A stretch of DNA of 33,387 nt from Deltaproteobacteria bacterium (GCA_031264015.1 JAISET010000169.1:1-33387); one strand, 5' to 3'; counted from the first letter of the stretch, positions 2,623-26,719 are shown. Notes: generated from the letters alone by a model not told the origin. Numbers and translations: made by a program.

Positions 2623-2665
2623 GGTCCCCCGCCCTCCCTCTTCCAAGGCGGTCCCCGTTTTGCCG

Positions 2666-5177: not shown

Positions 5178-5426
5178 GTCGGCCCGCCCGGACGGCCTGG
5201 GGGCGCGGATAATCACGAACAAGTTCGGACAATAACGGGCTTTGGCAACACCCGAGGACATTTTAAAGGATAAAGTTTTATTTTTTGCGTCAAAGTATTG
5301 TTGTCTCAAATTATTATTTAACTCCAAAATTAATTTCTCTATGCTCAGACGTCGTTCCGCATGACACGAACATCTTGCGGGCCAATAGTGATTGAATCTG
5401 ATTGGATTTTTTAAGGAGGCGGTTTT

Positions 5427-6254
5427 ATGTCGGGTCTAAAAAAGCTGCAAACCTGTCTTTTAATTCAACTTTTGATTGTCTTTTTCATCGGCTGCTCGCC
5501 GGTGGTGGGCACCGGCCGCTCCCAGCTCAACCTGGTGGACGACGCCGAGCTCAACCAGTCGGCCGCCCTCCAGTACACCGAGCTCATCAAGGACAGTCAT
5601 CTCTCCTCCAACCGGGAGCAGACCAGGATGATCCGCCGGGTGGGCGACCGCATCAGCCGGGCCGCCAGGGAGCTGATGGCCTCCGAGGGCCGGGCCGCCG
5701 AGGTCGAGGCCTACAAGTGGGAGTTCAACCTCATCGAGAGCGACGAGGTCAACGCCTTCTGCATGCCCGGCGGCAAGGTGGCCTTCTACACCGGCATCCT
5801 GCCCGTCTGCCAGACCGAGGCCGGGGTGGCAGCGGTCATGGGTCACGAGGTGGCCCACGCCCTGGCCAAACACGGCAACGAGCGGGTCAGCCAGCAGATG
5901 ATGACCAGCATCGGGGCGAGCCTTTTAAGCATAGGCCTGGGCGTCGGCGGGGTCTCCGGGGGCACCTCGGACCTGGTCATGACCGCCTTCTCGGTGGGCA
6001 GCACCTACGGGGTCCTGCTGCCCTTCAGCCGCTCCCACGAGGCCGAGGCGGACAGGATCGGCATGAGCCTCATGTCCATGGCCGGCTACGACCCCCAGGA
6101 GGCCGTCAACCTCTGGGAGAGAATGGCCGAGGAATCCGGCGGCAAGAGCCCGCCCTTCTTCATGAGCACGCACCCGTCCAACCAGCAGCGCATCAAAAAC
6201 CTGCAGAGCTATCTGCCGGAGGCCCAGCAGCGCTTCAAGCCGACCGGCAAATAA
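5427..6254 (+). CDS. M48-family zinc metallopeptidase lipoprotein (BepA/YcaL/LoiP-like)
   Basis: Lipobox LIVFFIGCS; HEXXH motif HEVAHALAKHGNE with a downstream SHEAEAD glutamate. Strong RBS AAGGAGG at 5413-5419. Confidence 0.85.
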   Translation: MSGLKKLQTCLLIQLLIVFFIGCSPVVGTGRSQLNLVDDAELNQSAALQYTELIKDSHLSSNREQTRMIRRVGDRISRAARELMASEGRAAEVEAYKWEFNLIESDEVNAFCMPGGKVAFYTGILPVCQTEAGVAAVMGHEVAHALAKHGNERVSQQMMTSIGASLLSIGLGVGGVSGGTSDLVMTAFSVGSTYGVLLPFSRSHEAEADRIGMSLMSMAGYDPQEAVNLWERMAEESGGKSPPFFMSTHPSNQQRIKNLQSYLPEAQQRFKPTGK

Positions 6255-6317
6255 CGGGCGGAGTCCGTCCGGGCAAGAGTCGGGCGGGGGCTGTCGGGCG
6301 GGGGGCTGTCGGGACGG

Positions 6318-6365
6318 CCCGGGCCGGTCCGAAGCCGCGCCGCGAGACGCGGCCGGGCTTTATCC
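6318..6365 (+). terminator. probable intrinsic terminator after the M48 peptidase gene (long imperfect GC hairpin followed by TTTAT)
   Basis: gcccgggccggtccgaagccgcgccgcgagacgcggccgggc followed by ttta. The arms are imperfect and the T-tract is weak. Confidence 0.35.
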
Positions 6366-6890
6366 GGGCATAATTTAGCCTGACTTCATCTAATTTGACC
6401 CGGCCGCCCACGGGTGGCGGACAGGCTTCCGGGCGTCCCCAAACGTCCGCGTCGATTTTTTGGCTCCCTGGTTGCGCCTTGATTTCAACTTGTCTTTGCC
6501 TTATCTTTGATTTATTTTTGATTAGATATTAAAATGTTTTTGCCTTTTTAAGCTTTTCCAGACCCGCAATTATATTTTTTGTCTTCGAATTTTGCTTTTT
6601 TTCACCGTCGGCCTCTGTAATTTTGTTTAAGTCTCCGCATTTTTGTTTTTTCGACCTTTTGCCTCTAAATTTTTATTCCCCTTGTGGGCGGCCCCCAAAG
6701 TTTCGCCCGTCTTCCCAGGCATGTCGCCCCGACCCTTGATGTTCTCACGTCGGGCGGGAGCAGGCGCGGCCGGGAGCCGGCGGCCCGGCGGCGTCGGGGC
6801 CGTTAATACCGGGCCGCCAGTTTGCGGGGCCGGAGCCCCCAGCGCCTCGGCTTCGCCGGGGATATCCATCTAGCGAAAAGGATTGTCATA

Positions 6891-8408
6891 ATGAGAAGGC
6901 GAGAGTTTCCCGGGACGCTCCGGCGCGCGCCGGCCGCCGCCGTCCTGCTTGGCCTGCTGGCGGCCGCCGTGATTTTGGCGGGCTGCGCCGACCCGGTCAG
7001 GCAGACGGCCGGGCGGCCTTTCATAGCCGTCCCCATAGAGCCGTCGACCATCTACGGCGAGGCGACCATCGGGGAGGGCCGCTCCAGGGAGGCCATAGAC
7101 AGTCTCGAGGTGCCCGGCCTCCCCCACTCCGGCCCCCTGACCCTGGAGGACTGCGTCGAGCTGGCCGCCAGGGTCAACCCCAACATCGACAGCACCGACC
7201 AGGGCTACCTGGGGGCGATGTGGTCGCGCTGGCAGGCGATCACCGACTTCCTGCCCTCGGTGGGCATGAGCTACGGCCCCACCCGCTACAGCGATGCCAC
7301 CGCCACCGGCTCCCGGGACCAGTGGTCCTGGGGCACGGAAGTCCAGGTGCCGATCTTTACCGGCGGAAGGACGGTGGCCAGCTATCTCCTGGGCCAGCTG
7401 GGCCTCTCCGAGGCCGACATCAACCGGGTGCGGGCCAAGGAGGACCTGGTGCTGGCCGTCAAGCAGGCCTACTACGGCATCCTGGCCGCCGAGAAGGCCC
7501 TGGACGTGGCCAAGACCACGGTCGTCAACCTCCAGAGCCACCTCAACGTCGCCAGGAACTTCTACGACGTCGGCATGGTCCCCCAGAACCAGGTCCTCGA
7601 GGCCGAGGTGGAGCTGGCCCGGGCGCAGCTGCAGGAGACCAACCGCGGCCGCGAGCTCAACATCGCCATCTCCAAACTGAACGTCCTCTTAAGGCGCCCC
7701 ATGGGCCTGCCGCTGAGCCTCAAGGACGAGCTCAGCCAGCCCCGCTTCCCCATGACCCTGGACGACTGCCTGCTGACCGGCCTCAAGGACAACCCCGAGG
7801 TCCAGCTGGGCAGAAACCAGGTGGAGATCAGGACCAAGTCAGTCGACGTGGCCCGCAGCGCCCTCTACCCCACCGTGACGGTCAACTACACCAACAACTC
7901 CACGGGCACCACCGGCACCGTCTCCGCCACCAACCAGTGGCGCATGTCGGCCACGGCCAACTTCAACGTCTGGGAGTGGGGCCGGGCCCGGGCCGGGGTG
8001 GAGATCAACAAGGTCACCCTCAACCAGGCCATCGACAACCTGATGGCCCTGGAGGACAACACCAAGCTGGAGATCAACACCAACTTTTTGAATCTGGTCT
8101 CCGCCGCCAGCAACATCTCGGTCTCCTTGAAGGCCGTCGAGCTCGCCCGCGAGAACCTGCGCATGGTTTCCGAGCGCTACCAGGTCCAGGTGGCCACCAA
8201 CACCGAGGTCATGGACGCGCAGACCCTGTTCAGCACGGCCCAGTACGACTACTACCAGGCCCTCTACGACTACAACCTCTCCTGGGCCGCCATCGAGAGG
8301 AGCATGGGCCGCTCGGTGACCACCGCCGGCCTGGTGCCCCTGTCCAGGCCCGTCGGCACCCCCGGCTCCAGCCTGATCCCCCCGGAGCCCGTCGTCGTCT
8401 CCCAGTGA
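6891..8408 (+). CDS. tolC: TolC-family outer membrane efflux channel protein
   Basis: Signal/lipo-like N-terminus MRRREFPGTLRRAPAAAVLLGLLAAAVILAGC. Two outer-membrane-efflux-protein repeats with characteristic coiled-coil motifs (e.g. LTLEDCVELAARVNPNI, NQVLEAEVELARAQ, AVELARENLRMVSERYQVQVATNTEVMDAQTLF...YYQALYDYNLSWAAIE). The ATG at 6891 is preceded by AAAAGGA. Confidence 0.85.
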   Translation: MRRREFPGTLRRAPAAAVLLGLLAAAVILAGCADPVRQTAGRPFIAVPIEPSTIYGEATIGEGRSREAIDSLEVPGLPHSGPLTLEDCVELAARVNPNIDSTDQGYLGAMWSRWQAITDFLPSVGMSYGPTRYSDATATGSRDQWSWGTEVQVPIFTGGRTVASYLLGQLGLSEADINRVRAKEDLVLAVKQAYYGILAAEKALDVAKTTVVNLQSHLNVARNFYDVGMVPQNQVLEAEVELARAQLQETNRGRELNIAISKLNVLLRRPMGLPLSLKDELSQPRFPMTLDDCLLTGLKDNPEVQLGRNQVEIRTKSVDVARSALYPTVTVNYTNNSTGTTGTVSATNQWRMSATANFNVWEWGRARAGVEINKVTLNQAIDNLMALEDNTKLEINTNFLNLVSAASNISVSLKAVELARENLRMVSERYQVQVATNTEVMDAQTLFSTAQYDYYQALYDYNLSWAAIERSMGRSVTTAGLVPLSRPVGTPGSSLIPPEPVVVSQ

Positions 8409-8561
8409 CTTCCCCCTCCCCTCCCCCGCCCCGGGCCTGTCTTCCCGGGGCGGCAGGCGGGCCGCCGACTTGAAGAATTTGGTCGGTTGGAAGAATTTGG
8501 TCGGTTGGAAGAATTGTCGTCAGTTTCAAGAACCGCGACGTTGAAGAATTGTTGATCTGAG

Positions 8562-8588
8562 GCCCCGGGCGATCCTCGGGGCTTTTTT
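8562..8588 (+). terminator. Rho-independent terminator (6-bp GC stem gccccg/cggggc, 9-nt loop, TTTTTT) downstream of tolC
   Basis: gccccgggcgatcctcggggcttttttcc read directly from the sequence. Confidence 0.6.
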
Positions 8589-8617
8589 CCCCCGCCGGGC
8601 TGTCCTCCAGGGGCACC

Positions 8618-9466
8618 ATGATACGCAAAGCTTTCCTAGTCGACTCCCTGGTCGACGGTCCTTTTTCTGGCGCCCCCACCAGCGTGGTCTTCCTGGAATC
8701 GCCCATGGACAAGTTCAAGATGCTGTCCCTGGCCAACGAGATCGGGACCAGCCAGACCGTCTACGTCCTCATGCACGACCAGGCCTCCTACCTGCTGCGC
8801 TTCTTCAGCAGGACGCAGGAGCTGCCCCTGGGCGGGCATTCCTGCCACGCGGCCGCCCATCTGATTTACGAGCTGGGCTTCTCGCCGCCGGGCGAGGAGC
8901 TGGTCTTCCTGACCCAGGAGGGCGAGATCTCCGCCCGCCGGGTCCCCCCGGACCAGACGGCCGTCAGGTTCGCGGCCCAGGCCTTCAACAAGATGGACCA
9001 GAACAACGTCAGCCTCTACTCCGACATCCTGGGCCTGAGTCCCCGCTCCGTCGCCTGGGCCGGGATCACCCAGAATCGGCAGGCCATCCTGGCCGTGGAC
9101 GCCTCCGCCCCCCTCAGGCGCCTGGAGCCGGTCCGGGAGAAGCTTCTCAACTCCGGGGCCACGACGCTGGCCGTGACCGCCCCCGACTCCTCCGCCGGCT
9201 GCGACTATTCCCTGCGCTGCTTCACCCCGGGGCTTCTGTTTCCGGAGCACCTGGTCAGCGCCACAGTCCACCGCAGCCTGGCCCCCCAATGGGGGCGCCT
9301 CCTGCGGAAGACGCGCCTGCAGTGCCGCCAGCTCTCCAGCCGGGGCGGGCTGGTCCTGCTGGACGTCTCCGACCCCGGCCGCGTCCTGATGACCGCCAAG
9401 TCCCGGACCGTCATGCGCAGCGACGTGGTCATGGAGATGATGGACAGCTACCTGGACCCCCTCTGA
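8618..9466 (+). CDS. PhzF-family phenazine-biosynthesis-like protein (predicted isomerase/epimerase)
   Basis: N-terminal F.VDSL...PFSGAPTSVVFL and SQTVYV motifs, and two half-domains typical of the PhzF/DAP-epimerase fold. Length is 282 aa. Confidence 0.65.
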   Translation: MIRKAFLVDSLVDGPFSGAPTSVVFLESPMDKFKMLSLANEIGTSQTVYVLMHDQASYLLRFFSRTQELPLGGHSCHAAAHLIYELGFSPPGEELVFLTQEGEISARRVPPDQTAVRFAAQAFNKMDQNNVSLYSDILGLSPRSVAWAGITQNRQAILAVDASAPLRRLEPVREKLLNSGATTLAVTAPDSSAGCDYSLRCFTPGLLFPEHLVSATVHRSLAPQWGRLLRKTRLQCRQLSSRGGLVLLDVSDPGRVLMTAKSRTVMRSDVVMEMMDSYLDPL

Positions 9467-9610
9467 GCGAACGGAGGCGGCGGCGGGAGTCTCGGACGAG
9501 GCCGGGATATCCGGCTGAAAACGCGGAAAATTTGGCGGCCGGGCGGAAAGAATGGCTGTCGGGCGGAAAGAATGGCTGTCGGACGAAAATTTGGCCATGA
9601 AAAGAAAAAA

Positions 9611-9640
9611 GCCTCCTGGCAAGCATTCCAGGAGGCTTTT
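9611..9640. terminator. bidirectional intrinsic terminator (perfect 9-bp stem gcctcctgg/ccaggaggc, 8-nt loop, flanked by an A-run upstream and a T-run downstream)
   Basis: aaagaaaaaagcctcctggcaagcattccaggaggctttt. Confidence 0.6.
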
Positions 9641-10312
9641 GACATGCCTGTCGCGGGACCGTGATTGCGAGACGCCCTCCCACTTCGAAAGGACGGGCGT
9701 TCTCAGGCAATTAGAATATAGGCACCGCCTGGCCTTGTGTCAAGGTCTGAGGAAAAGAAAATTTCCATTTTTTTTCAAAGGGGCGTCTTTTTCCCCGGGC
9801 GCGGGCGTCTCCGCCCCCCGGAAGAGCCAGCCTGTCGCCGCGCCGTCTCTCGCCGCCAGGCGTTCCCGCCGGGGGAGCCTCCCGGAGGCGGTCGGCGGAA
9901 GACGGGAAATTTTGCATAAAAAAAAACCCGGACTGACGAAATCCAGGGGGCTTTTATCAGGGCGGACTTTGACGAACTTCAGCGGACTTTAAGAACCGAA
10001 AATCATCGCTTTCTTCGGCGCGGACAGACCCTTTGTCCGCGGAGGATCGCCAGCGCGGTCAGGATTAAGGCCATAGTCGACTCCCGGCCAAATGTCAAGT
10101 TCGGAAGGGCGAAAATTTCAATATTTATTCATCCGAGTAGTTCCGCGCCTGTCGGCCAAAATTTCGGACGACGGCCGCGACGGCTGAGGACGGAGTCCCT
10201 GCCAAACCATATGCAGGCAGGTGGAAAGTTAAAATTTGTTTTTTTTAACTATATAGCCATACATACAATTGTTATACAATAATATCAACTGAATTTCCAA
10301 CGACGCCATCCC

Positions 10313-10575
10313 TTTTTCTCTCCCGAACAATAGTTCTCCCCAGAGATCTGTTCAACCCAGAAAATCAATTCTCCCAAGATTATTAATTCTCCCCATTAAT
10401 ATCGTTCCCCCAGGCCAGGTATTTCCCCCCGCAAATTTAGTTCTCCCAAGCAGGCTGTTTCTCCCACCAAATTGCGTTCTCCCCAGCAGGCTAACTCCCC
10501 CCTAAATTGCGTTCTCCCCAGCAGGGTAATTCTCCCCTCAAGTTACGTTCTCCCCAGCAGGGTAATTCTCCCCGC
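10313..10575. repeat. array of about 14 copies of a (A/G)TTCTCCCC motif, period about 18-19 bp, left flank of the IS1634-like gene
   Basis: Copies such as tagttctccccag, aattctcccaag, gcgttctccccagcaggc (three times) and taattctcccc, read directly. Confidence 0.8.
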
Positions 10576-11113
10576 CCCGCCTCCCCGTCGCCTGCCAGGC
10601 GTCGTCTCAATCGTTGTTTCAAGTGTCGCCGGCCCCCCGGAAAAGTCGTCCGTCCCGAGGTGACGACCGGGGGCAGCCTGGCCCGGGGCTGCCGGCTTGG
10701 ATTCCAGTTTGGGATTTCGGGCGCTGTCGCCTGGAGCCCCGAGTCTCAATTTGAAGTCAGTCTTCCGTCTGATGCCTCGAGTCGGAAACCGCGGTCGGAG
10801 ATTGCTGAAAAGGTGTGCGGACAGTCCCCGACCAGATAATTCATCCCGACAGCCGCCGCCCGGTCCGGCTCGGGGGGCTGGCTTCCAGCTGTCGGCCAGG
10901 GAGTCGAAAAAGCGGAAGTTGTTGCATTTAAAGGATTGGAGGCAGGCCGGGGTGGAAAGAAACAGGCGGCTTGAAGGGGGGAGGAGGCAGGCCGGGCTTT
11001 GGGGACGTGCCTGGGGAGGGCGGGCATGGGCGCCTGGCTTTGGGGACGGGCTTGGGGGGCCGACATTGGCTCCGACGACAACGGCAATGACAGGGAGCGG
11101 CTATTTCGAGTGG

Positions 11114-13165
11114 TCAGACAATGGATGGAGGCAAAGGAAGAGAGAAGGAACTGAAAATCTCTTTTTGAATAGCATTTGGGATGTTAACATATTCGATATT
11201 CTTATATTTAAATGATTTAAGCAAGTTTAATTCTGATAAAATATTACTTAAAGTATATTTTTTAGATATGTCAGAGTTAATATAGATTTTATAAATATGG
11301 CTGAAGATAATATTAGCCAGAAAAATAATAAAAAATGTGTTGGCATAATTAGTTTTAGCCATGTAACTAAATCTAAAAAAGCTCATATGCTTTATGAACG
11401 CATTGTTCATATCAAAAATTTGGTTTCTTATTTTATAAATGTCATAAATTTCCTGAGGGGCCTGGTCGACATTGCTCAGAATGACGAAATATCCCTCTTT
11501 GGACAAGTACTTGTCCACTTCGGCCTCGTTGATGACAACGCCCCCGTCGTCTTGAAAGAGCAGGAATCTGTCGTACTCGGTGCGCCTGACCAGGCCGAGT
11601 TTGTCTTTTTGCCTCGCCTCCCGAATTCTATTGAGGTTGGTGAAGAAGGACTGCCGTTCGTTGAGGGCGGCCATGGGGTTGAAGTAAACGTAGGCCCGGA
11701 GCAGGCGGCCGCTGTTTTCCCCCGCCTCCTCCTCCGCTTTGGTCCCGCCTCTTTCAACGCCATTTTTCTCAGTCATCCCCCATTTTTCCTCCGCCATTCT
11801 CAATTTTTCCTCTGTTGCCAGCCATTTTTCCGTTCCTGTCTCCTCTTTTCTTTCCGCGTCCTCGCCGCCGCCTGACTTGGATAAATCCGCGGGCCGGCCG
11901 GCCTCCAGGTCGTAGACGATCTTGAGCCCCCGGACAGTCTCGCCTGCGGAGCCGGTGGCGATGTAGTTGGAGGCGCTGTCTATGGAGCCGGAGGCAGATT
12001 TGATGATGTCCAAAACCAGCCGGTCGGCCGCGGGCGCGCGCAGGGCGAAATTGACTTTGTTTTCATCCAGCAGTTCTTTGAGGAAATTTAAAGAGTAAAA
12101 ATCCTCGGTTAAAAAGATGTCGGCGTTCCGGCAGTCGAAGTCTTTCTCCAGCATGCCGCGCACGTCCGCAAGCACCTGCCCGTAGGTCCGCTTCTCGTCG
12201 ACAAAATGCTGGCAGACGGGCAGCAGGGAGTCCCGTCCGTAGAGGGTGACAATGTTGCCTTTGCCGACTTGATTGGCGGACTGGCCGGCCTCGGCAAACC
12301 TGCCCAACTCGGCGCTCTGCCTGAGAATGGACTTTGTCTCCGTCAGGACGAAATCGCTTTCGTTGTGGCGTCGGTTCCAATTTTTAAAGAAAGATTCTCT
12401 TTTTATGGGAAGAATATTGTTGATAAGAGAAGTCAGCTTGGTAAATGAAAATAAATTTCTGTTTATGTCGGTGTTGTCTTCCAGCCAGTAGCCAATCTCT
12501 TCCAGCTGTTTGTTGGTTGACAGTAGAAAAAATAGGAAATTATTGATAAATTCATAGTTAAAGCTAAAAATATCCTTTAAATTTGATTCTATATCCAACT
12601 GTCTGACTATTTGAGAAAAGAAATATTGCACGCCAAAATGCCTGAACCCGCCCGCCTCCATGGGGTTGAACTTGGCGGAGGATCTCGCCGGCCCCGCGGC
12701 CTCGCCCCCGGTAACAATCCTCTCCGGCGCCCGGACCGCCCGCCCCGAAGTCGGCGCCGCCTGCCCTGAAGCCCGGACCGCCCGGCCGGAGGCGCGGTCC
12801 CCCCGGACGTCCGGGGCGCCCGCGGCGGCAAATGTCCGGCAGCCGTCAACCTCCCCGGCCGGCCCATCCGGCGCGCCCGGACGGGCGGACCCCGGCCGCT
12901 CGCTTGTCTTCCCCGCCTCCCCCCCCTCCTCCGTCTTTCCAGGCAGAGGGTAGATCCGCCCTTGAATTTTGACGGAGACGGCGGAGGTCGTCTCCAAAAA
13001 CGACCTCTTGAAGACCAGGTCGCCGGTGGCCGGGTCAACCTTGCCGATGTAGAACTTCGTGTTCTTGTTGGACTTGCTGGTCGGGTCGTAGTTGGAGACG
13101 GACTCGACGATGTAGGTGAAGCCCTTCTTATTCACGAACATGTACGACTTGGAAGCCACGACCAC
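11114..13165 (-). CDS. IS1634-family (IS4 superfamily) DDE transposase, apparently intact. The true start may be the MFVNKK methionine at 13141.
   Basis: N-terminus MFVNKKGFTYIVESVSNYDPTSKSNKNTKFYIGKV resembles the IS1634-family N-terminus (MF..KK...Y..VES). C-terminal GYFVILSNV and YDIYKIRNQIFDMNNAFIKHM resemble the IS4-type Y-x2-R-x3-E-x6-K region, though F replaces E and the spacing is off by one. The low-GC gene body contains GC-rich in-frame inserts. Confidence 0.6.
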   Translation of the reverse strand: MVVASKSYMFVNKKGFTYIVESVSNYDPTSKSNKNTKFYIGKVDPATGDLVFKRSFLETTSAVSVKIQGRIYPLPGKTEEGGEAGKTSERPGSARPGAPDGPAGEVDGCRTFAAAGAPDVRGDRASGRAVRASGQAAPTSGRAVRAPERIVTGGEAAGPARSSAKFNPMEAGGFRHFGVQYFFSQIVRQLDIESNLKDIFSFNYEFINNFLFFLLSTNKQLEEIGYWLEDNTDINRNLFSFTKLTSLINNILPIKRESFFKNWNRRHNESDFVLTETKSILRQSAELGRFAEAGQSANQVGKGNIVTLYGRDSLLPVCQHFVDEKRTYGQVLADVRGMLEKDFDCRNADIFLTEDFYSLNFLKELLDENKVNFALRAPAADRLVLDIIKSASGSIDSASNYIATGSAGETVRGLKIVYDLEAGRPADLSKSGGGEDAERKEETGTEKWLATEEKLRMAEEKWGMTEKNGVERGGTKAEEEAGENSGRLLRAYVYFNPMAALNERQSFFTNLNRIREARQKDKLGLVRRTEYDRFLLFQDDGGVVINEAEVDKYLSKEGYFVILSNVDQAPQEIYDIYKIRNQIFDMNNAFIKHMSFFRFSYMAKTNYANTFFIIFLANIIFSHIYKIYINSDISKKYTLSNILSELNLLKSFKYKNIEYVNIPNAIQKEIFSSFSLPLPPSIV

Positions 13166-13205
13166 CGTCCTCTCGACCCGACGCCCGGGGGCGAGGCCGA
13201 CATAA

Positions 13206-13547
13206 TGGGAGAACTAACCCGGGGGAGCCAGGCCCCCGTGATTGGGCGAACTACCCTTGGGAGAACCAAGCCCGCCTAAAGGGGGAACCGACGCGGAAGA
13301 ACGCCCGGGGGAGAACAAGTTTGACTGAGGGGAGAACCGACCTGGGTTCTCCCTGCAGGCCCGGCAATGAGAAAGGCGAAATCCGGGCGCGCAAGGCTCG
13401 AAATTGGGATCATTATACTCCGATGAAGACAAAAAGAACAGTTTGTTAAACGAAAGAACAGTTTTTCAGGTGATTTTCCCAACGATTTTCAAGCCGCCGA
13501 TCAAGTTCTCCCTAGAATGGAGAACCACGACTTCTGGGGAGAAACAT
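13206..13547. repeat. array of about 10 copies of a GGGAGAAC motif, in inverted orientation relative to the left array, with one palindromic pair GTTCTCCCTAGAATGGAGAAC. Right flank of the IS1634-like gene.
   Basis: Copies gggagaactaaccc, gggcgaactaccc, gggagaaccaagcc, ggggagaacaag, ggggagaaccgacc, gggttctccctgcagg, gttctccctagaatggagaacc and ggggagaaacattt, read directly. Confidence 0.8.
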
Positions 13548-13955
13548 TTCCACCCATCCAGATCGTGGCTGAAAGCAAAGACTTTTTAGCTATTATCATA
13601 ACAAAAATTCAAAAATGCATAATTTTACTTCGCAATTATGCCGATCCTGACCAGCCGGTTTTTGGCGCCGGGAGCAATCTGACCCGGGGCATAAAAAAAA
13701 GGGAGAAAAAGTTCTCCTTTTAAAAAATTCCACCCATAAATTTCCACCCACAATTTCTCCCCGTCTTTCGTCGGCGTCTTCGTCGGGAGATAAATAGAAA
13801 TAATTGTGGCGATTTACCATATAGCTATATCCTGGATGCAATTATCTCGTATATAAAACTCCGTCAAAATTACCTTGAAAAAGCCCCGCGGCCGCAGGTC
13901 TGCCACCGGCCGGCCGCGGGTCTGCCGTCGGCCGGCCCGTCTAAATCACCGACCC

Positions 13956-16106
13956 TCAGCCGGTTATCTCGGCGGCCGCCTCCACGAGGGGGCCGACCTG
14001 CTCGAGGACGCTTCTGAACAGCTCGGGCTGTTGTATTTTGGGCATTTCCTGGAAAACCTGGCCCTGGGCGTAGTTGGCCTGGTTGCTGGCGTAGTCGTCG
14101 ACCCTGGCCCTGCTTTTGACCGAGCCGTCGGGATAATACTCCACGACCATCCCCGACTCCCGGCCGGCGACATATTCGGCGGACCTGAGCAGCTTGCCGT
14201 TGTCGTCCAGCTCCAAAACCGTCCCCTGGATCGTCCCGCGGCTCAGGGGGAGCAGCCGGCTGACCCTCTGGCTCCCGCCGTCCAAGGGCGGGTGGAGCTC
14301 CAGGGCCAGGCCCTCGGGCTCGCCGTTCCGGTAGTTGATCACCTTGGTCAGGCTCATGTCTTGGTCGAAGTAAAGCCTCGGCCCCTCGGGCGCGCCGCCC
14401 CGGAAGGCGGTGAGGGTGCTGAGAAGTCTTTTCCCTCCCGGACCCCGCCGCGGCTCGTAGACCAGGCCGTCCGCCGGCCGGCCCGCGGGCGTCCGGCAGA
14501 CGACGGGGGAGCCGCCGCACCTGAGGTCCGCCAGGTCGTAGACCGCCCGCCCGGAGATCACGGCCGGGACCGCCGGGGAGCCGGAAGACCCGCCCCCGGT
14601 CGAAGTCCCCGCCCCGCCGCCGTCAGCTTGGGACGACGGGGACGAGGACGCTGACGACGATGGCGACGAGGACGCTGACGACGAGCGTGACGAGGACGCT
14701 GACGACGAGCGCGACGAGGATGCTGACGACGAGGGCGACGAGGACGCTGACGACGAGGGCGACGACGGGACGGACGGGGCCGCCGGGGGCGAGGAGACGC
14801 CCGCCGACCGGGACGGTGGCCGGGAGAGGGACCGCGTGAAATTTCGGAAGTCGAAGCCGAAGGCCATGACGATGACGGAGACGACGGTGACGACGAGAAA
14901 CTTCAGGCGGTCGGACTCGGTCCTGGCCAGAAACGGTCTGACCGGCGGCTGGCTGTCGGCCAGCAGCTTGGCCCGCTCGACCTCCGGCAGGGGGTTGCTG
15001 CCGTCGGTGATCTCGAGTTTCTTGGCGGCCAGGCTGGCCCCGCGCTTTAATCTGGAAAAACTGGAGATGCTCCTGGAGCGGAGCATCCCGAACAGGAGGG
15101 CGATGATCCCCGAGGCGGCCAGGGGGATCAGGGTGTCGGAGAAGTCCAACAAATTCCCGTAGACGCCCAGGCAGGCGAGGCCGAAGACCATGGCGACGAA
15201 GAGAAGCGGCAGGTAGCCCCTGGTCTTCATTTTCTGGCGGCCGGCGTCCACCGGCATGGGGTCGGCCAGATGGGCCCCCAGGGCCACGCCCTCGGCGAGG
15301 ATCTTGTACTCGGAGCCGCCGTAGCTGAAGACGAAACGGCCCAGGGGCAGGAAGCCCGCCTTGACCGGGGTGGAGAAGGTGACGTCGGCGTCGGCGGCCC
15401 AGTCGCGCTGGCGGTCGCCCTTGGCGTGCTGGCGGGCGGCCTGGATGGCGTCCTGCTTGGCGACCAGCCCCAGGATGTACGAGGTGGCCCCCTTGGCGTC
15501 CTGATTGAAGTCCAGGGGGGCGTAGCCGGTCATCAGGACCTGGTCGTAGGGGACGGCCCCCTGGGAGGGGATGCGGCCCTCCACCAGGGCCACCGCCTTC
15601 GGGGGCAGCTGGTCGGAGCCGGCGGCGCAGCAGACGCGCCTGAAGGACCCGCTGGCCGTGCCGCTGGCCGGGCGCCAGTCGGTCACGGTGCGGTACCTGG
15701 TCACCGGCCTGGAGCGGGAGTTGCCGCGGGAGTCGGTGTAGTTCTCGTACTCGGTGTAGGCCTCCTGCCGGTCGAAGCCGAAGGAGGCCGACCAGCGGCT
15801 GACGAACGTCCCCTCCCCCAGAAAGCACGGGACGTAGACGAAGGTCTCCTCCTCGACCTGGCTGGCGTCCAGGATGTCGTCGGGGACCGTCTCGGGCTTG
15901 ACCATCAGGGTGTGGGCCATGGCGCGCAGCTCGGCCTGGCTGACCGCCGCGGGCACGATGAACTCGATCTTGAGCTCGGCCTCGGCCGTCGGCTTTAACA
16001 GGGAGACCGCGGAGCCGCAATATTGGCAGGTGGCGGTCAGCAAGCCGGGGGTCAGCTCGACGTCCGCCCCGCAGCTCTGGCAGACGATGTGGGTCAGCGC
16101 TTCCAT
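13956..16106 (-). CDS. 716-aa multidomain protein: N-terminal C4 zinc ribbon, about 270-aa globular region, three TM helices, Ser-rich tandem-repeat linker, C-terminal MORN-like (YwqK-type) repeats. Third gene of the operon.
   Basis: CQSCG...CQYCG at the N-terminus. TM segments YLPLLFVAMVFGLACLGVY, LIPLAASGIIALLFGML and FLVVTVVSVIVMAFGF. Linker SSSASSSP repeated about 5.5 times. C-terminal NYRNGEPEG...LDDNGKLLRSAEYVAGRESGMVVEYYPDGSVKS. Hairpin-plus-T-run terminator candidate on the minus strand at about 13870-13925. Confidence 0.75.
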   Translation of the reverse strand: MEALTHIVCQSCGADVELTPGLLTATCQYCGSAVSLLKPTAEAELKIEFIVPAAVSQAELRAMAHTLMVKPETVPDDILDASQVEEETFVYVPCFLGEGTFVSRWSASFGFDRQEAYTEYENYTDSRGNSRSRPVTRYRTVTDWRPASGTASGSFRRVCCAAGSDQLPPKAVALVEGRIPSQGAVPYDQVLMTGYAPLDFNQDAKGATSYILGLVAKQDAIQAARQHAKGDRQRDWAADADVTFSTPVKAGFLPLGRFVFSYGGSEYKILAEGVALGAHLADPMPVDAGRQKMKTRGYLPLLFVAMVFGLACLGVYGNLLDFSDTLIPLAASGIIALLFGMLRSRSISSFSRLKRGASLAAKKLEITDGSNPLPEVERAKLLADSQPPVRPFLARTESDRLKFLVVTVVSVIVMAFGFDFRNFTRSLSRPPSRSAGVSSPPAAPSVPSSPSSSASSSPSSSASSSRSSSASSSRSSSASSSPSSSASSSPSSQADGGGAGTSTGGGSSGSPAVPAVISGRAVYDLADLRCGGSPVVCRTPAGRPADGLVYEPRRGPGGKRLLSTLTAFRGGAPEGPRLYFDQDMSLTKVINYRNGEPEGLALELHPPLDGGSQRVSRLLPLSRGTIQGTVLELDDNGKLLRSAEYVAGRESGMVVEYYPDGSVKSRARVDDYASNQANYAQGQVFQEMPKIQQPELFRSVLEQVGPLVEAAAEITG
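14641..14768. repeat. 24-bp tandem repeat (about 5.5 copies; gacgaggacgctgacgacgagNNN) encoding SSSASSSP units inside the 716-aa gene
   Basis: Direct reading of near-identical 24-mers. The third-position variation is silent or conservative (P/R). Confidence 0.85.
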
Positions 16107-16211
16107 AAATTTTTCATCATATGTTGTTTTCCGTCAGGTATAGCGTCTCGTCCCGTCAGGCGCGTCGTCAGGCGTCCCGTCAGGCGCGGCCGGGTCGAAA
16201 CGCCCGGCCGG

Positions 16212-16919
16212 TCAGAACCCGCCCCTCTGGCTGTCGCCGGCCTCCCTGCGCCTGACCTGGGCCAGGGAGAGCATCTCGTCGAGGAGGGTCTCGGCGTCGG
16301 CGGCGGAGTCGCCCCCGGCGGAGGAAAACATCCGCTCCAGCTGGGCGGCCTTCCGGACCAGGACGCCGTCCGAGGAGGCGCTGGCCTTGCGGTCGAAGAA
16401 GCGCACCTCCTCGCAGAGTTTCTTGAGCTTTTCGGTCTGCCCCGGGCTCAGTTTGGCCAGCTTGAGGACGCTGTCGAGCCGGCCCAGCAGCTCGATCGGG
16501 GCGGCGATCTTGGCCGCGGTCGCCGCGTCGACGGCCGAGACGCCCCTGGAGGAAACGTAGAAGACGATCTCCAGGCTGACCAGGAGGGCGAAGGCCACCA
16601 GCTCCCAGGGGACCAGCCAGTTGAGGCTGACGGCCAGCCCGGCGGCGTGGACCACGGCCATGGGCAAAGCCAGCAGCAAATACAACCCCAGGACCACGTA
16701 GGAGCCCATGCGGAACAGGGGGCCGGTGCCCGGGGGGGCCAGGTCCTGGACGGCCAGGCCGACGACGACCGCGGTCTCGGAGAGAAGCAGGAAGACCAGG
16801 CCCAGCCATTGGACGTTGGTGCGCTCCCCGGTCAGGATCAGGAAGATGGCCAGGGAGACCAGGATCCAGACGGCGCCGATGACGAGGACGACCTTGAGGC
16901 GCGGGCTGACTTTTTCCAT
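16212..16919 (-). CDS. integral membrane protein (4 predicted TM helices plus a cytoplasmic helical C-terminus), function unknown. Middle gene of the operon.
   Basis: Hydrophobic segments VVLVIGAVWILVSLAIFLIL, WLGLVFLLLSETAVVVGLAV, VVLGLYLLLALPMAVVHAAGLAV and LVAFALLVSLEIVFYV. The region is GC-rich and GC3-skewed. It lies 93 bp after the gene in front of it on the minus strand. Confidence 0.6.
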   Translation of the reverse strand: MEKVSPRLKVVLVIGAVWILVSLAIFLILTGERTNVQWLGLVFLLLSETAVVVGLAVQDLAPPGTGPLFRMGSYVVLGLYLLLALPMAVVHAAGLAVSLNWLVPWELVAFALLVSLEIVFYVSSRGVSAVDAATAAKIAAPIELLGRLDSVLKLAKLSPGQTEKLKKLCEEVRFFDRKASASSDGVLVRKAAQLERMFSSAGGDSAADAETLLDEMLSLAQVRRREAGDSQRGGF

Positions 16920-17027
16920 GTCGCTTGTCCTTCCGGGCGGCCGGGCTGCCGGCCGGGTTGTCTGCCGGCCCGTGCGGCCGGGGAATTCGGGCGGGGGCGT
17001 CCGGGCCGGGGGACCCGCCCCCGCGGC

Positions 17028-18326
17028 TCAGAGCCTGGTCCCGCAGGAGGGGCAGAACTGGGAGGCCCCCGGCTGCTCCAGCCCGCAGGAGGGGCATTTC
17101 TTGGTCAGGGCGCCGCCGCAGGAGGGGCAGAACTTGGAGCCCGGGGGGACCTTCTGGCCGCACAGGGGGCAGGGCTGGGGCAGTTTCGCCCCGCATTTGG
17201 GGCAGACGGCCGTCCCCTGGGGCAGGTCCTCCCCGCAGCTCGGGCAGGGGTTGTAGGGGTCGCCGCAGTTGGGGCAGAACTGGGAGGTCTTGGCGAACAT
17301 CGTCCCGCACTTGTCGCACTTGACCGTGTCGGGGGCCTGCTGCCGGCCTCCTCCCGCCTGGGGGAGCGGCTTGCCGCAGTCCGGGCAGAAGCGCCTGCCC
17401 TCGGGGACCATGGCCTGGCAGCCGGGGCAGCGGACGGAGCCCGCCGCGGAGAGGTTCTGGGCCATCCCCCCGAACTGGGCGCCCATGGGCCCGCCCAGGC
17501 CCAGGCCCATGCCCAGGCCGAGGCCGGCCCCCATCACGCCCGCCTGGCCGGAGCCGGGGTTGGTGGCGGCCCCCTCCAGGGTGTCGAAGGTGCGCTCCTG
17601 CTGGTAGTTGTAGCCGATGATGTCCATCTCGGCCTTCTTGGCCAGGGCGGCCTTGAGCTGGACCACGGCCGGGTCGTTCTCGGGGACGCTGACGTCGTTG
17701 ATGTAAAAGTTGACCAGCTCGATGCCGTACTCCGCCATGACGGGCTTGACCCGGTCCTTGACGTGGTCGGCCAGCTCCTCGAGATAGGCGTTGATCTCCA
17801 GGACGCCGATTTTCTTGTGGACCAGGTAGCCGGCCAGGGAGTCCTTGACCTTGTTCAGATACAGGCCCTTGAAATAGCGGGTCAGGGTCTCCTGGTCGAA
17901 GACGGGGACCGTCCCCACGAGTTTGATCAGGAATTTCGACGAGTTGTCGATTCTGATCCCGAACTGCCCGAAGGTGCGCACCGGGACCATGATGCCGAAC
18001 TTGGGGTCCTGCAGCTGGATGGGCGACGGGGTCCCCCACTTGATGTCCAGGGAGTTGGTCTTGTTGACGAACCAGACCTCGGCGGCGAAGGGCGACCTGC
18101 CCCCGAAGGGCAGCTTGAAGAGGGCCGAGAGCAGCGGGATGTTGGCCGTCTCCAGGGTGTGCCTGCCGGGCCCGAGGACGTCCAGGGCCTGGCCGCCCTT
18201 GAAGAAGACGGCCTCCTGGGACTCGTTGACGACGAGCTGGCTCCAGGTGGCCAGCTCCTCGTTGGGAAACTTCCAGGCGAAGACGCTGTTGGGGCCGCTG
18301 TATTTGACTACGTCGATTATGGCCAT
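17028..18326 (-). CDS. SPFH/Band-7-like protein of the YdjI type with a Gly/Met-rich linker and five tandem C-terminal zinc-ribbon (CxxC-x9-12-CxxC) modules. First gene of the operon.
   Basis: N-terminus MAIIDVVKYSGPNSVFAWKFPNEELATWSQLVVNESQEAVFFKGGQALDVLGPGRHTLETANIPLL closely resembles B. subtilis YdjI-type SPFH proteins. GGAGAG RBS 3 nt upstream of the ATG at 18326. C-terminal CPGCQ..CPDCG, CDKCG..CPNCG, CPSCG..CPKCG, CPLCG..CPSCG and CPSCG..CPSCG. Confidence 0.8.
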   Translation of the reverse strand: MAIIDVVKYSGPNSVFAWKFPNEELATWSQLVVNESQEAVFFKGGQALDVLGPGRHTLETANIPLLSALFKLPFGGRSPFAAEVWFVNKTNSLDIKWGTPSPIQLQDPKFGIMVPVRTFGQFGIRIDNSSKFLIKLVGTVPVFDQETLTRYFKGLYLNKVKDSLAGYLVHKKIGVLEINAYLEELADHVKDRVKPVMAEYGIELVNFYINDVSVPENDPAVVQLKAALAKKAEMDIIGYNYQQERTFDTLEGAATNPGSGQAGVMGAGLGLGMGLGLGGPMGAQFGGMAQNLSAAGSVRCPGCQAMVPEGRRFCPDCGKPLPQAGGGRQQAPDTVKCDKCGTMFAKTSQFCPNCGDPYNPCPSCGEDLPQGTAVCPKCGAKLPQPCPLCGQKVPPGSKFCPSCGGALTKKCPSCGLEQPGASQFCPSCGTRL

Positions 18327-19106
18327 GAGATGACTCTCCGGTGCCTGAGCCGCGGGACGAAAAAAAAGAACATGACCGCCGGGCGGCCGGCGCCCGCGGG
18401 CGGCTGGCTGGTGCAACGGGCGGGCGGCTGGGGCAGTGTCAGGCGTATTCTAGCCCCGGCCCGGGTTTTATTCAAGATCCGGCGGCCTCCCCCCCCGGGA
18501 CGAAAGGGTCGGAAAGCGCCAAAAAACGGCGGGCCGCGGGTCAGGCCCGGGCGCCGGCCGGCGGGAGCCCCCCCGGCGGCGCGTCGGCCGGGGCGGCGTT
18601 TCGGGAGACGCCCGGGGAGATGAAGGCGTCGTCGGCCATATTTGAAGAGACTAAACGCGGCGACGGGGAAAGAACAAGCCGTCCTTTCGACGACAGGAAA
18701 GACGCGTCTGTCGCCGCGACATGCGGCGCGCCGTCAATTTCCGTCCGGGCGACGCCCTCCCGGCCCTCCGGACCTGAGGGCGCCGGCTTCCGGTCGGGCC
18801 CGACGCGGTCGAATTCGCCTATGTCCGCGCGGGCCGCGGCGAGCGCCGCCTTTTCTTCCTGGTCGAAGCCTGCGGCCGTCGCCGGCGGGGCCGTGACGGA
18901 CATGACGGCCGGAACAAACATCGGCGACGCCGCCGGCCTCGCGAGTCCGGGGCGGGCTGGGCGCCGGCCGGCCGCGACGACATGGTCGGGGTCTTTCCGA
19001 CTAATATTCCGGCGGGTTGTTGGCGGCGCTCCGACAGTTGGACGGACGAACCGAAGCAAGATTTCAAAAAGACGCTCCCCCCGGCGTCGCGCGACGCCGC
19101 CGCGCC

Positions 19107-26715: not shown

Positions 26716-26719
26716 TGCT

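What the first reader, a model, noticed from the sequence alone, without database searches (positions are those of the whole stretch)
10300..13550. IS1634-like transposase gene bracketed by inverted arrays of about 18-bp-spaced GTTCTCCC / GGGAGAAC motifs. Possible multi-site transposon ends.
The left flank (10313-10575) carries about 14 copies of GTTCTCCCC. The right flank (13206-13547) carries about 10 copies of the reverse complement GGGAGAAC, and the outermost units share a similar two-box architecture (TTTCTCCC-N9-GTTCTCC). Inverted orientation on the two sides argues that the arrays belong to the element rather than being a host array split by an insertion. Multiple subterminal transposase-binding repeats are known for Mu, Tn7 and IS21, but to my knowledge not for IS1634-family elements. 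A 550-bp GC-rich non-coding stretch (10575-11113) with its own gggctttggggacg repeats would lie inside the element. The arrays could also be unrelated protein-binding iterons.
Basis: partly seen in the sequence, partly recalled or inferred. Interest (0 to 1): 0.7.

Follow-up and report, generated by a model that had tools for sequence, protein, structure and literature searches.

The report
Dead transposase flanked by binding-site arrays
The motif arrays are real, but the gene between them is not an active jumping gene: it is an IS1634-type transposase that has lost its three catalytic residues, sits at the same chromosomal spot in related uncultured Deltaproteobacteria, and is flanked here by amplified copies of the short DNA box that its active relatives carry in their ends, which makes it a likely bacterial case of a domesticated transposase.

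Summary
Nineteen of the 20 exact TTCTCCC sites in the 33-kb window flank one gene. Fifteen boxes at 18-bp spacing lie at 10315-10575 (+). A looser cluster, mostly on the minus strand, lies at 13204-13762.

The gene (11114-13141, minus strand, 675 aa) is a full-length homologue of IS1634-family transposases with a Tn5-like fold. It has E268/T345/F576 where about 88% of 130 aligned relatives have D/D/E. It scores 51 bits against the NCBIfam IS1634 model, whose cutoff is 100.

Relatives that also lack the catalytic E lie next to the same convergent PhzF gene in two other lineages. Flanking proteins there are 57-77% identical; this protein is 27-48% identical.

Conservation is kept in the N-terminal, helical and C-terminal domains and lost only in the RNase H core. 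The short-range dN/dS pattern agrees.

Four active relatives carry the same box (TTTCTCCCTA, GTTCTACCTAGG) as the inner half of their terminal inverted repeats and as a palindrome over their promoter.

My reading is an immobilised, exapted transposase that still recognises its ancestral end box. The big arrays are a lineage-specific tandem amplification: 15 units here, 11 in a sister strain, 1-3 boxes in other lineages. Binding and function are inferred, not shown.

The parts
11114..13141 (-). tnpL: a 675-aa catalytically dead IS1634-family transposase homologue. The start MFVNKKGF matches the starts of its homologues.
   Evidence: AF2 model pLDDT 79. Tn5 transposase is the best PDB fold match, probability 1.00.
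12338..12340 (-). Codon E268, at the position of catalytic D1 on strand beta1 (VLTETKS against family ALDITS).
   Evidence: (D in 113 of 130 homologues).
12107..12109 (-). Codon T345, at the position of catalytic D2 (FLTEDFYS against family VMDKGFYS).
   Evidence: (D in 115 of 130).
11414..11416 (-). Codon F576, at the position of catalytic E (RNQIFDMN against family RKKDVVEKAF).
   Evidence: (E in 114 of 130).
12944..13141 (-). N-terminal beta-rich domain (aa 1-65). It is the best conserved part and the presumed box-binding domain.
   Evidence: 46% identity to P0004 against 18% for the core. dN/dS 0.15. pLDDT above 90. The DNA-binding role is inferred from the Tn5 analogy.
12683..12922 (-). 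Lineage-specific, disordered P/G/A/R-rich insert (aa 74-153).
   Evidence: pLDDT below 50; dN/dS 2.1 for the two inserts together.
11720..11869 (-). Lineage-specific, disordered E/K-rich insert (aa 425-474) with 21-nt repeats.
   Evidence: (D6).
10315..10575 (+). Downstream array: 15 boxes [GAT]TTCTCCCC every 18 bp, built from a 36-bp two-box unit. On the gene's sense strand the boxes read GGGGAGAAC.
   Evidence: The sister strain L001 lacks 71 bp, which is two 36-bp units. A third assembly breaks inside the array.
13204..13337 (-). Seven direct boxes (GTTCTCCC-like on the gene's sense strand) at irregular spacing, 60-200 bp upstream of the ATG. They lie in the probable 5' leader.
13329..13354 (.). 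Palindromic box pair GGGAGAAC-N8-GTTCTCCC.
13505..13555 (.). Distal box cluster GTTCTCCCTAG(+), GGAGAAC(-), GGGGAGAAA(-), followed by the variant box TTTCCACCCA.
   Evidence: (I22).
13700..13762 (.). Palindromic pair GGGAGAA-AAA-GTTCTCC, which also looks like a terminator on the minus strand. It is followed by two TTCCACCC variant boxes and TTTCTCCCC. It resembles the operator palindrome GGGTAGAA-TTA-TTTCTACCC of the active relative L004.
10576..11113 (.). GC-rich non-coding spacer between the stop codon and the array. It is lineage-specific: absent in L003 and L204, where PhzF follows within 75-120 bp.
   Evidence: Divergence from L001 is neutral-like at 4.1%.
10200..10314 (.). AT-rich outer flank. 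It holds a possible, chance-level relic of the outer IR box (ACTGAATTTCC at 10288-10298).
   Evidence: It has no partner on the right side.

Best explanation
The locus is an immobilised, exapted ('domesticated') IS1634-family transposase gene together with relics of its own end-binding boxes.

An ancestral IS of this clade inserted between a 716-aa hypothetical gene and PhzF before the sampled lineages split. Its transposase then lost the DDE active site and its cleavable termini. It kept its N-terminal, helical and C-terminal domains under purifying selection.

The 9-11-bp box GTTCTCCCC(AG) is the inner half of the ancestral terminal inverted repeat and promoter operator. It is probably recognised by the N-terminal domain, as in the Tn5 model. 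In this lineage a 36-bp two-box unit was amplified by tandem duplication to 15 boxes downstream of the gene. About 7-12 boxes accumulated in the 5' leader and upstream region.

Most likely working model (inferred): the protein binds these boxes as a sequence-specific DNA-binding protein. It represses its own transcription through the leader boxes. Through the retained C-terminal multimerisation region it may bridge the two inverted clusters, looping out its own gene.

Shown here: ancestry, loss of the catalytic residues, the fixed locus, domain-specific constraint, identity of the box with the inverted-repeat box of active relatives, and array copy-number variation. Inferred: DNA binding, autoregulation, looping and any host-level role.
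For: Ancestry and fold.
- NF033559 IS1634 hit, E 1e-13.
- 350 homologues were found, most of them bona fide IS1634 transposases scoring 180-246 bits.
- The AF2 model matches Tn5 transposase with probability 1.00.

Dead active site.
- The window protein has E268/T345/F576 where 113-115 of 130 homologues have D/D/E. These residues sit on the canonical strand, strand-end and helix positions.
- The catalytic E is also lost in P0003 (L), P0004 (Q) and P0011 (K). These proteins share derived C-terminal motifs with the window protein.

Fixed locus.
- L003 has the same order, hyp670 - gene - convergent PhzF - OEP - M48. Neighbour proteins are 57-77% identical, while the gene is 27-48% identical.
- L204 again has the gene followed by a convergent PhzF that is 67% identical.

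Selection.
- Between the window protein and P0004, identity is 46% (N-terminal), 38% (helical), 18% (RNase H core) and 37-38% (C-terminal). Active-active pairs average 33, 33, 42 and 28-39%.
- Against sister strain L001, dN/dS is 0.15, 0.05, 0.70 and 0.33 for the same domains.
- Folded-domain DNA diverges 1.9% against 4.8% for flanking non-coding DNA, Fisher p = 2e-4.

Box identity.
- L004 is an active IS of 2045 bp with a 6-bp ATACTA target-site duplication. Its inverted repeats read CCTGAAGTCCCG-AATTTCTCCCTA and CCTGAAGTCCCGGAAAAGTTCTACCTA.
- L006, L202 and L203 show the same bipartite repeat.
- All four also carry a palindromic box pair over the -10 of their promoter.

Array dynamics.
- A 71-bp indel (two units) separates the window from L001.
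- Only 1-3 boxes lie downstream of the gene in L003, L005 and L204.
Against: - No binding, expression or phenotype data exist.
- Individual boxes are not significantly better conserved than their spacers between the two strains: 8 of 171 against 16 of 181 mismatches. The arrays may therefore be evolving neutrally.
- The big arrays are absent from the other lineages, so they are not needed for whatever the conserved gene does.
- The gene remains 17-24 GC points, and far lower in GC3, below its neighbours in all three lineages. Its GC3 is mosaic, from 0.97 down to 0.20. That is odd for an old resident and is unexplained.
- Whole-gene dN/dS against L001 is 0.51, no lower than that of some neighbours.
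- Only three or four sparsely sampled lineages are available, and no genome with an empty site was found.
- No canonical sigma-70 promoter was detected upstream on the gene's strand.
Confidence: 0.65

Rival explanations
1. The gene is exapted or otherwise retained, but the arrays are functionless by-products. On this view they are a minisatellite that grew by slippage or unequal crossing-over from a relic inverted-repeat box. They would not matter for the protein or the cell.
For: - Arrays are present only in the window, L001 and L205 lineage. L003, L204 and L005 have 1-3 boxes.
- Copy number differs between close strains by exactly two units.
- The innermost units are nearly identical, which suggests recent duplication.
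- Boxes are not significantly more conserved than spacers.
- The window has many other short tandem repeats.
Against: - Both flanks independently accumulated the same box, in the orientation expected for the left and right ends. The right-hand cluster is not a tandem array, so slippage alone does not explain it.
- The box core is kept across 15 units while the spacers vary.
Confidence: 0.17
2. One reading: a mobile, or trans-mobilisable, IS1634-like transposon of about 3.3 kb whose ends each carry many transposase-binding sites, as in Tn7, Mu or IS21.
For: - The box is the inverted-repeat box of active relatives, and the two clusters are inverted.
- The outermost two-box units pair at 88% over 16 nt.
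- A non-autonomous element could in principle be moved by an active relative.
Against: - The encoded protein lacks D, D and E.
- No outer terminal (cleavage) box pair and no target-site duplication can be found.
- The gene occupies the same locus in genomes whose PhzF proteins are only 67% identical.
- Orthologues lack arrays.
- The unit would be 3.3 kb, against the family range of 1.5-2 kb (PMC2266710).
- No second copy or fragment occurs in the window.
Confidence: 0.05
3. A decaying IS relic: the ORF is a pseudogene-in-waiting that is still open by chance, and nothing here has a function.
For: - Catalytic residues are lost.
- Whole-gene dN/dS is 0.51.
- The gene evolves fast compared with its neighbours.
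- GC content is still far from the host's.
- Disordered inserts have dN/dS above 1.
Against: - Intact ORFs of 553-681 codons persist in lineages that are only about 31-34% identical to each other.
- Constraint is domain-specific: the N-terminal, helical and C-terminal domains are kept and only the core is relaxed.
- Folded-domain DNA evolves 2.5 times more slowly than flanking DNA.
- GC3 of the first 150 codons (0.83-0.97) is close to that of host genes (0.91-0.93).
Confidence: 0.08
4. The arrays are operator or iteron sites for some other factor, for example a centromere-like parC site or a regulator of PhzF or the 716-aa gene. Their likeness to the IS inverted-repeat box would then be coincidental.
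For: - Arrays of direct 18-20-bp repeats beside a gene are typical of plasmid centromeres and iterons (my own knowledge).
- Other short-period repeats with GAAGAAT-like cores lie near PhzF at 8470-8550 and 9523-9582.
Against: - No partition ATPase, Rep or defence protein was recognised nearby.
- The context is ordinary chromosomal genes.
- The box matches the inverted-repeat and operator box of four related active IS in sequence and orientation.
Confidence: 0.05

Closest known systems
IS1634-family insertion sequences (IS4 superfamily; De Palmenaer et al. 2008, PMC2266710). The nearest examples here are the active elements in L004, L006, L202 and L203.
   Same: - Full-length homology of the protein, including the N-terminal domain, the RNase H-like core with a long insertion, and the C-terminal helices.
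- The same box sequence next to the gene, in the same orientation.
- A palindromic box pair upstream of the gene.
   Different: - The D/D/E triad is replaced by E/T/F.
- The protein is below the NCBIfam cutoff, and Pfam DDE_Tnp_1 is not detected.
- There is no outer terminal repeat and no target-site duplication.
- The outermost boxes are about 3.3 kb apart, against 1.5-2 kb for the family.
- The locus is single and syntenic.
- Boxes are amplified to arrays.
Tn5 transposase and its inhibitor Inh (IS50, IS4 family; PDB 1MUS, 1B7E)
   Same: - Best structural match.
- Tn5 offers the model in which the N-terminal domain reads the inner part of the end sequence and the C-terminus dimerises (my own knowledge).
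- Inh shows that a non-catalytic transposase derivative can act as a regulator.
   Different: - Inh lacks the N-terminal DNA-binding domain and is encoded by the active element itself.
- Here the N-terminus is the best-kept part, and the gene is a fixed chromosomal gene.
RAYT / REP-BIME (TnpA-REP), the classical bacterial transposase domestication (Ton-Hoang et al. 2012, PMC3333891)
   Same: A single-copy, chromosomally fixed transposase relative associated with multiplied copies of the sequence its ancestors recognised at IS ends.
   Different: - RAYTs are HUH/Y1 enzymes of the IS200/IS605 type and remain catalytically active.
- REPs are hairpins scattered genome-wide.
- Here the protein is a DDE-type fold without its catalytic residues, and the boxes are clustered in arrays beside the gene.
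Eukaryotic domesticated DDE transposases that kept end or box binding: CENP-B with CENP-B boxes in satellite arrays, and SETMAR with Hsmar1 TIRs (my own knowledge)
   Same: A transposase-derived protein whose DNA-binding domain still recognises a short box that occurs in tandem arrays or in TIR relics.
   Different: These are eukaryotic pogo and mariner lineages. CENP-B function is centromeric. No such case is documented for an IS1634-type protein in bacteria in the papers I could search.
Multi-site transposon ends (Tn7 TnsB sites, Mu L1-L3/R1-R3, IS21)
   Same: Several directly repeated transposase-binding boxes on each side, inverted between the two sides.
   Different: Those elements have an active transposase, defined terminal cleavage sites, target-site duplications and 3-4 sites per end. 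Here there are 15 regularly spaced boxes on one side, no termini and a dead enzyme.

Membership tests
IS1634-family insertion sequence (active IS) | Transposase matches the family model above the curated threshold. | tested here: not met
   NF033559 scores 51.1 bits against a cutoff of 100, and only aa 454-669 align. Pfam DDE_Tnp_1 is not detected. Active relatives score 181-246 bits.
IS1634-family insertion sequence (active IS) | Intact DDE catalytic triad. | tested here: not met
   E268/T345/F576 sit at the columns where 113, 115 and 114 of 130 homologues have D/D/E. Their positions are confirmed on the AF2 model.
IS1634-family insertion sequence (active IS) | Terminal inverted repeats at both ends. 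| tested here: not met
   The best local alignment of the left flank against the reverse complement of the right flank scores 27, against a shuffle mean of 19.6 and maximum of 30. The outer box CCTGAAnTCCC has no inverted pair. Only the short inner box is shared.
IS1634-family insertion sequence (active IS) | 5-6-bp AT-rich target-site duplication. | tested here: inconclusive
   No ends can be defined, so no duplication can be called. The active relative in L004 does show ATACTA on both sides.
IS1634-family insertion sequence (active IS) | Size 1.5-2 kb and mobility (several copies or variable loci). | tested here: not met
   The outermost boxes are at least 3.2 kb apart. There is no other copy in the window. 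The locus is the same in L001, L003 and L204.
Domesticated (exapted) transposase | Descent from a transposase. | tested here: met
Domesticated (exapted) transposase | Orthologous, syntenic position in divergent genomes (immobility). | tested here: met
   The gene lies next to a convergent PhzF orthologue in the window, L003 and L204. The wider synteny hyp716-gene-PhzF-OEP-M48 holds in L003.
Domesticated (exapted) transposase | ORF kept under purifying selection after loss of transposition functions. | tested here: met
   Intact ORFs persist in all lineages. Constraint is domain-specific. Folded-domain DNA is slower than non-coding DNA, p = 2e-4. Counts are small and only one close pair is available.
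Domesticated (exapted) transposase | Demonstrated host function. | not testable with these tools
   This needs genetics or biochemistry.
Multi-site transposon ends (Tn7/Mu/IS21 type) | Multiple binding sites plus a terminal cleavage site at each end, served by an active transposase. | tested here: not met
   Boxes are present. Termini are absent and the enzyme is dead.
Centromere or iteron array (ParR/parC-like, Rep iterons) | Array next to a partition NTPase/adaptor or Rep gene on a replicon. | tested here: not met
   The neighbours are hyp716, PhzF, OEP and M48 peptidase. Pfam gave no hit for hyp716 and PhzC-PhzF for the other neighbour scanned; PADLOC gave no hit for the transposase-like gene, hyp716 or the 235-aa ORF at 16212-16919. 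The context is chromosomal.

The most novel reading that the evidence does not exclude
This would be a bacterial counterpart of CENP-B or SETMAR: a DDE transposase of the IS1634 family that was domesticated into a sequence-specific DNA-binding protein. A satellite-like array of its ancestral end box would serve a host function. One candidate function is as a decoy or inhibitor that neutralises incoming active IS of the same clade. Another is a bridged nucleoprotein structure that organises or insulates this chromosomal region. Other catalytically degenerate IS1634-like proteins turned up in the same search (P0066, P0116, P0121, P0130). That hints that such exaptation may be recurrent in bacteria and archaea.
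Probability: 0.3. Interest if true: 0.8.

Novelty: new variant of a known kind. Interest (0 to 1): 0.6.

Why it matters
Domesticated DDE transposases are a classic theme in eukaryotes. The main documented bacterial case, RAYT/REP, involves a different, still active enzyme class.

This locus offers a compact, testable bacterial case:
- one gene;
- a defined 9-11-bp box;
- a natural array of 15 boxes;
- active relatives that reveal what the box once was.

It would let one ask what a cell gains from keeping the DNA-recognition and multimerisation parts of a transposase while discarding catalysis. It would also show whether arrays of ex-transposon ends can act as regulatory, decoy or architectural DNA in prokaryotes.

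There is a practical point as well. Automatic annotation would either call this a hypothetical protein, as it did, or wrongly call it an IS.

Tried and rejected
- **Extended terminal inverted repeats.** Local alignment of one flank against the reverse complement of the other gave nothing beyond the box. The outer-box searches were at chance level.
- **Arrays elsewhere.** I scanned metagenome and viral collections for three TTCTCCC at an 18-bp period. None shows protein similarity to the gene (tblastn) or DNA similarity to the array (blastn).
- **Empty site.** A genome-contig scan with the neighbouring 716-aa protein returned only the L003 contig again. No genome lacking the gene was found.
- **More relatives by word-indexed protein search.** Searches with the window protein, P0004 and P0003 returned only themselves and the sister strain.
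- **RNA explanations.** There were no Rfam hits or tRNAs in the window. The array folded as RNA gives z = -1.35 on the sense strand and -2.3 on the antisense strand, with no convincing structure.
- **Coding potential of the GC-rich spacer and overlapping ORFs.** No Pfam hits.
- **Defence-system or plasmid association.** PADLOC gave no hit. tblastn against plasmids gave no match. PDB sequence search gave nothing meaningful.
- **Whole-gene dN/dS against L001.** The values (0.51, with neighbours at 0.28-0.94) were uninformative at this low divergence. Only the per-domain split was useful.
- **Replication origin or terminus.** The cumulative GC-skew minimum at the locus follows gene orientation: coding strands are C-rich and the genes converge. 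It cannot be interpreted in a 33-kb window.
- **Recent replacement of the AT-rich C-terminal part from a P0003-like donor.** Rejected, because the same low-GC3 profile is seen in L005, L003 and L204.

Full report
**1. What is in the sequence**

The motif clusters are real.
- TTCTCCC occurs 20 times in the 33,387-bp window on both strands. About 8 are expected, and none of 100 shuffles reaches 20.
- Nineteen of the 20 lie at 10334-10572 or 13207-13761.

The left cluster is a true array.
- It holds 15 units from 10315 to 10575, all on the + strand, every 18 bp with one 17-bp step.
- The units alternate between GTTCTCCCCAGCAGGSTA and WTTCTCCCC-N9. The real repeat is therefore a 36-bp two-box unit.

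The right cluster is different.
- Seven minus-strand boxes lie at 13204-13337 at irregular spacing.
- A palindromic pair lies at 13329-13354.
- A mixed-orientation group lies at 13505-13555.
- A second palindrome lies at 13700-13719, next to two variant TTCCACCC boxes and a TTTCTCCCC.
- A PWM built from the left array finds 16 of its 19 strong hits (12 bits or more) in these two flanks.

Between the clusters lies one long ORF, 11114-13141 on the minus strand (675 aa, start MFVNKKGF). A 540-bp GC-rich stretch with no coding support follows it.

**2. What the protein is**

- Pfam finds nothing. NCBIfam finds the IS1634 transposase model at E 1e-13, but at 51 bits against a cutoff of 100 and over the C-terminal third only.
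- An exhaustive HMMER search of 1.84 billion representatives finds 350 homologues.
- Nine of those homologues were scanned as a group. Seven are ordinary IS1634 transposases scoring 181-246 bits. P0003 had no hit and P0004 scored only 68 bits.
- The window protein aligns with its homologues from the first residue to the last.
- An AlphaFold2 model built from 60 sequences has pLDDT 79 and pTM 0.69. Only two lineage-specific inserts are disordered (aa 74-153 and 425-474).
- The best solved-structure matches are the Tn5 transposase complexes, probability 1.00.

The active site is gone.
- At the three columns where 113, 115 and 114 of 130 aligned homologues have D, D and E, the window protein has E268, T345 and F576.
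- In the model these residues sit on strand 263-269, just after strand 341-344, and in helix 562-586. Those are the canonical positions of an RNase H-like transposase core.

**3. It is fixed, not mobile**

- A sister strain (L001 = L002, a Deltaproteobacteria MAG) is colinear with window 1683-20959 at 95-97% identity and carries the same locus.
- A third assembly (L205) is 99.86% identical to the window, and its contig breaks inside the array.

More telling are the distant relatives.
- The next-nearest proteins are P0004 (31-34% identity), P0003 (64% over the part present) and P0011 (43%). All of them also lack the catalytic E (Q, L and K respectively).
- They share derived C-terminal motifs with the window protein.
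- P0004 lies in the same gene order: hyp670 - gene - convergent PhzF - OEP - M48 peptidase.
- The neighbours there are 57%, 67%, 66% and 77% identical to the window's, while the gene itself is only 27-48% identical.
- P0011 is again followed by a convergent PhzF that is 67% identical to the window's.

A single old insertion followed by vertical descent is the economical reading.

No second copy or fragment of the gene occurs in the window. No extended inverted repeat or outer-terminus pair can be found.

**4. It is still under selection, but not on the catalytic core**

Deep comparison:

| Pair | N-terminal | Helical | RNase H core | C-terminal |
|---|---|---|---|---|
| Active-active (mean) | 33% | 33% | 42% | 28-39% |
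| Window protein vs P0004 | 46% | 38% | 18% | 37-38% |

The core is the best conserved domain among active transposases and the worst between the two full-length dead proteins.

The window-versus-L001 comparison shows the same pattern at short range.
- dN/dS is 0.15 (N-terminal), 0.05 (helical), 0.70 (core), 0.33 (C-terminal) and 2.1 (disordered inserts).
- The counts behind these values are small.
- DNA coding for the best conserved folded segments diverges 1.9%, against 4.8% for the surrounding non-coding DNA (Fisher p = 2e-4).
- Intact ORFs of 553-681 codons in lineages this far apart are not expected for a pseudogene (inference).

**5. What the box is**

Four active relatives reveal it.
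- The element in L004 spans 5850-7894 (2045 bp) and is flanked by a 6-bp ATACTA duplication.
- Its ends read CCTGAAGTCCCG-AATTTCTCCCTA and, in reverse complement, CCTGAAGTCCCGGAAAAGTTCTACCTA.
- L006, L202 and L203 have the same bipartite ends: an outer CCTGAAnTCCCG-type box and an inner TTTCTmCCYAGG-type box.
- All four also carry a palindromic pair of the inner box. Its left half supplies the -10 hexamer of a TTGACA-N17 promoter just upstream of the ATG.

The window's GTTCTCCCCAG is this inner box.
- Its orientation is as in the active elements: TTCTCCC on the sense strand upstream of the gene and GGGAGAA downstream.
- In Tn5, the N-terminal domain reads the inner part of the end and the catalytic core holds the tip (my own knowledge).
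- The window locus has kept the N-terminal domain and the inner box. It has lost both the active site and the tip.

**6. The arrays are a lineage-specific amplification**

- L003 has three relic boxes (GGGTAGAAT, GGGTAGAAC, GGGGAGATT) in the 75 bp between the stop codon and PhzF. It has a few more upstream, plus two TTCCACCC boxes 25-50 bp before the ATG. It has no array.
- L005 and L204 have one or two degenerate boxes.
- The sister strain L001 has 11 units where the window has 15. The difference is a clean 71-bp (two-unit) indel.
- The units nearest the gene are almost identical to each other.
- Boxes are not significantly better conserved than spacers between the two strains: 8 of 171 against 16 of 181 mismatches.

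The arrays grew by tandem duplication. Whether they are used is open.

**7. Most likely mechanism**

I think the protein is an exapted, sequence-specific DNA-binding protein. On this model:
- it binds the boxes through its N-terminal domain;
- it represses its own expression through the boxes in its leader, an inheritance of the operator logic of the active elements;
- it may bridge the two inverted clusters through its retained C-terminal region.

A role as an inhibitor or decoy against active IS of the same clade is attractive but untested.

The main rival is that the gene is functional while the arrays are a neutral minisatellite.

**8. Comparison with what is known**

The element fails the tested defining features of an IS1634-family IS (PMC2266710):
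- model threshold;
- DDE triad;
- terminal repeats;
- size;
- mobility.

The remaining feature, a target-site duplication, cannot be assessed because no ends can be defined.

It meets the testable criteria for a domesticated transposase.

Its closest conceptual relatives:
- RAYT/REP in bacteria (PMC3333891), which is a different and still active enzyme class;
- CENP-B and SETMAR in eukaryotes;
- the Tn5 inhibitor protein.

My literature searches found no description of a catalytically dead, syntenic IS1634-type protein with box arrays. The library is incomplete, so this is absence of evidence only.

**9. Unexplained**

- The gene stays far more AT-rich than its neighbours in all three lineages. 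GC is 51% against 68% in the window, 36% against 55% in L003, and 27% against 51% in L204. GC3 is 0.36 against 0.69-0.76 in L003 and 0.25 against 0.55 in L204.
- In the window, GC3 is mosaic. It is host-like (0.83-0.97) over codons 1-150. It falls to 0.33-0.53 over codons 181-270 and 0.20-0.37 over codons 571-660.
- The C-terminal trough recurs in L003, L005 and L204.
- That recurrence argues against a recent patch transfer. It hints at a constraint or bias that I cannot name.

Noticed in passing
window 11114-13141 (also L003 5001-6662, L005, L204): GC3 within the transposase-like gene is mosaic. It is 0.83-0.97 over codons 1-150, the same as host genes at 0.91-0.93. It drops to 0.33-0.53 over codons 181-270 and 0.20-0.37 over codons 571-660. 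The C-terminal trough recurs in three other lineages, and the gene is 17-24 GC points below its neighbours everywhere. Unexplained.
   Followed up: partly
window 8470-8550: A perfect 18-bp tandem repeat (GAAGAATTTGGTCGGTTG x 2.4), plus a fourth TTGAAGAATT, lies between the OEP gene and the PhzF start. The period matches the array and the core is GAAGAAT-like, but it lacks the CCCC of the box. It may be an operator for another factor.
   Followed up: partly
window 9523-9582: A 20-bp tandem repeat x 3 (GCGGAAAGAATGGCTGTCGG) lies just downstream of the PhzF stop, with a GGAAAGAAT core. The 730 bp between PhzF and the AT-rich flank is absent in L003 and L204.
   Followed up: no
window 24000-30000 and 1-2000: Two AT-rich (28-50% GC), ORF-poor islands sit in a genome of about 68% GC. 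One includes a 54-bp tandem repeat at 24396-24507. There are no IS1634-like remnants in them by tblastn.
   Followed up: partly
window 28359-28459 and 32698-32798: A 101-bp direct repeat at 95% identity, 4.3 kb apart. One copy ends at a strong box-like GTTCCCCCCAG (32799, minus strand).
   Followed up: no
window 14632-14767 (inside the 716-aa gene 13956-16106, minus strand): A 12/24-bp coding repeat encodes a Ser-rich low-complexity tract whose length differs between the window and L001. The 716-aa protein has no Pfam or PADLOC match. Its C-x2-C...C-x2-C N-terminus looks like a zinc ribbon by eye. It is conserved next to the transposase-like gene in L003.
   Followed up: partly
P0066, P0116 (L206), P0121, P0130, P0026, P0084, P0114: Other IS1634-family homologues also lack one to three of the D/D/E residues. 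P0116 lacks all three. It lies in an archaeal-type contig next to purF, ribosomal protein L37e and an LSM gene. Loss of catalysis may be recurrent in this family.
   Followed up: partly
L003 2165-2461 and 3430-4413: In the syntenic contig, the space between hyp670 and the transposase-like gene holds a 128-aa ORF made of 54-bp coding repeats (FDSDWGTYVFDGRELTK). It also holds a 488-bp tandem duplication, each copy carrying a 55-57-aa ORF. Neither is present in the window.
   Followed up: no
L001 34-190 and 19542-19683 (window 20798-20951): The two ends of the 19.7-kb sister contig carry about 150 bp that are 85% alike in the same orientation. A repeat probably stopped the assembly there.
   Followed up: no
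window 11114-13141: Gene callers disagree on the start. JGI aa. NCBI aa for this contig (MDR1051167.1), which would start at about M161 by length and so remove the N-terminal domain. NCBI aa for the sister contig. The N-terminal 73 codons have dN/dS 0.15 and host-like GC3, which supports the long form.
   Followed up: partly
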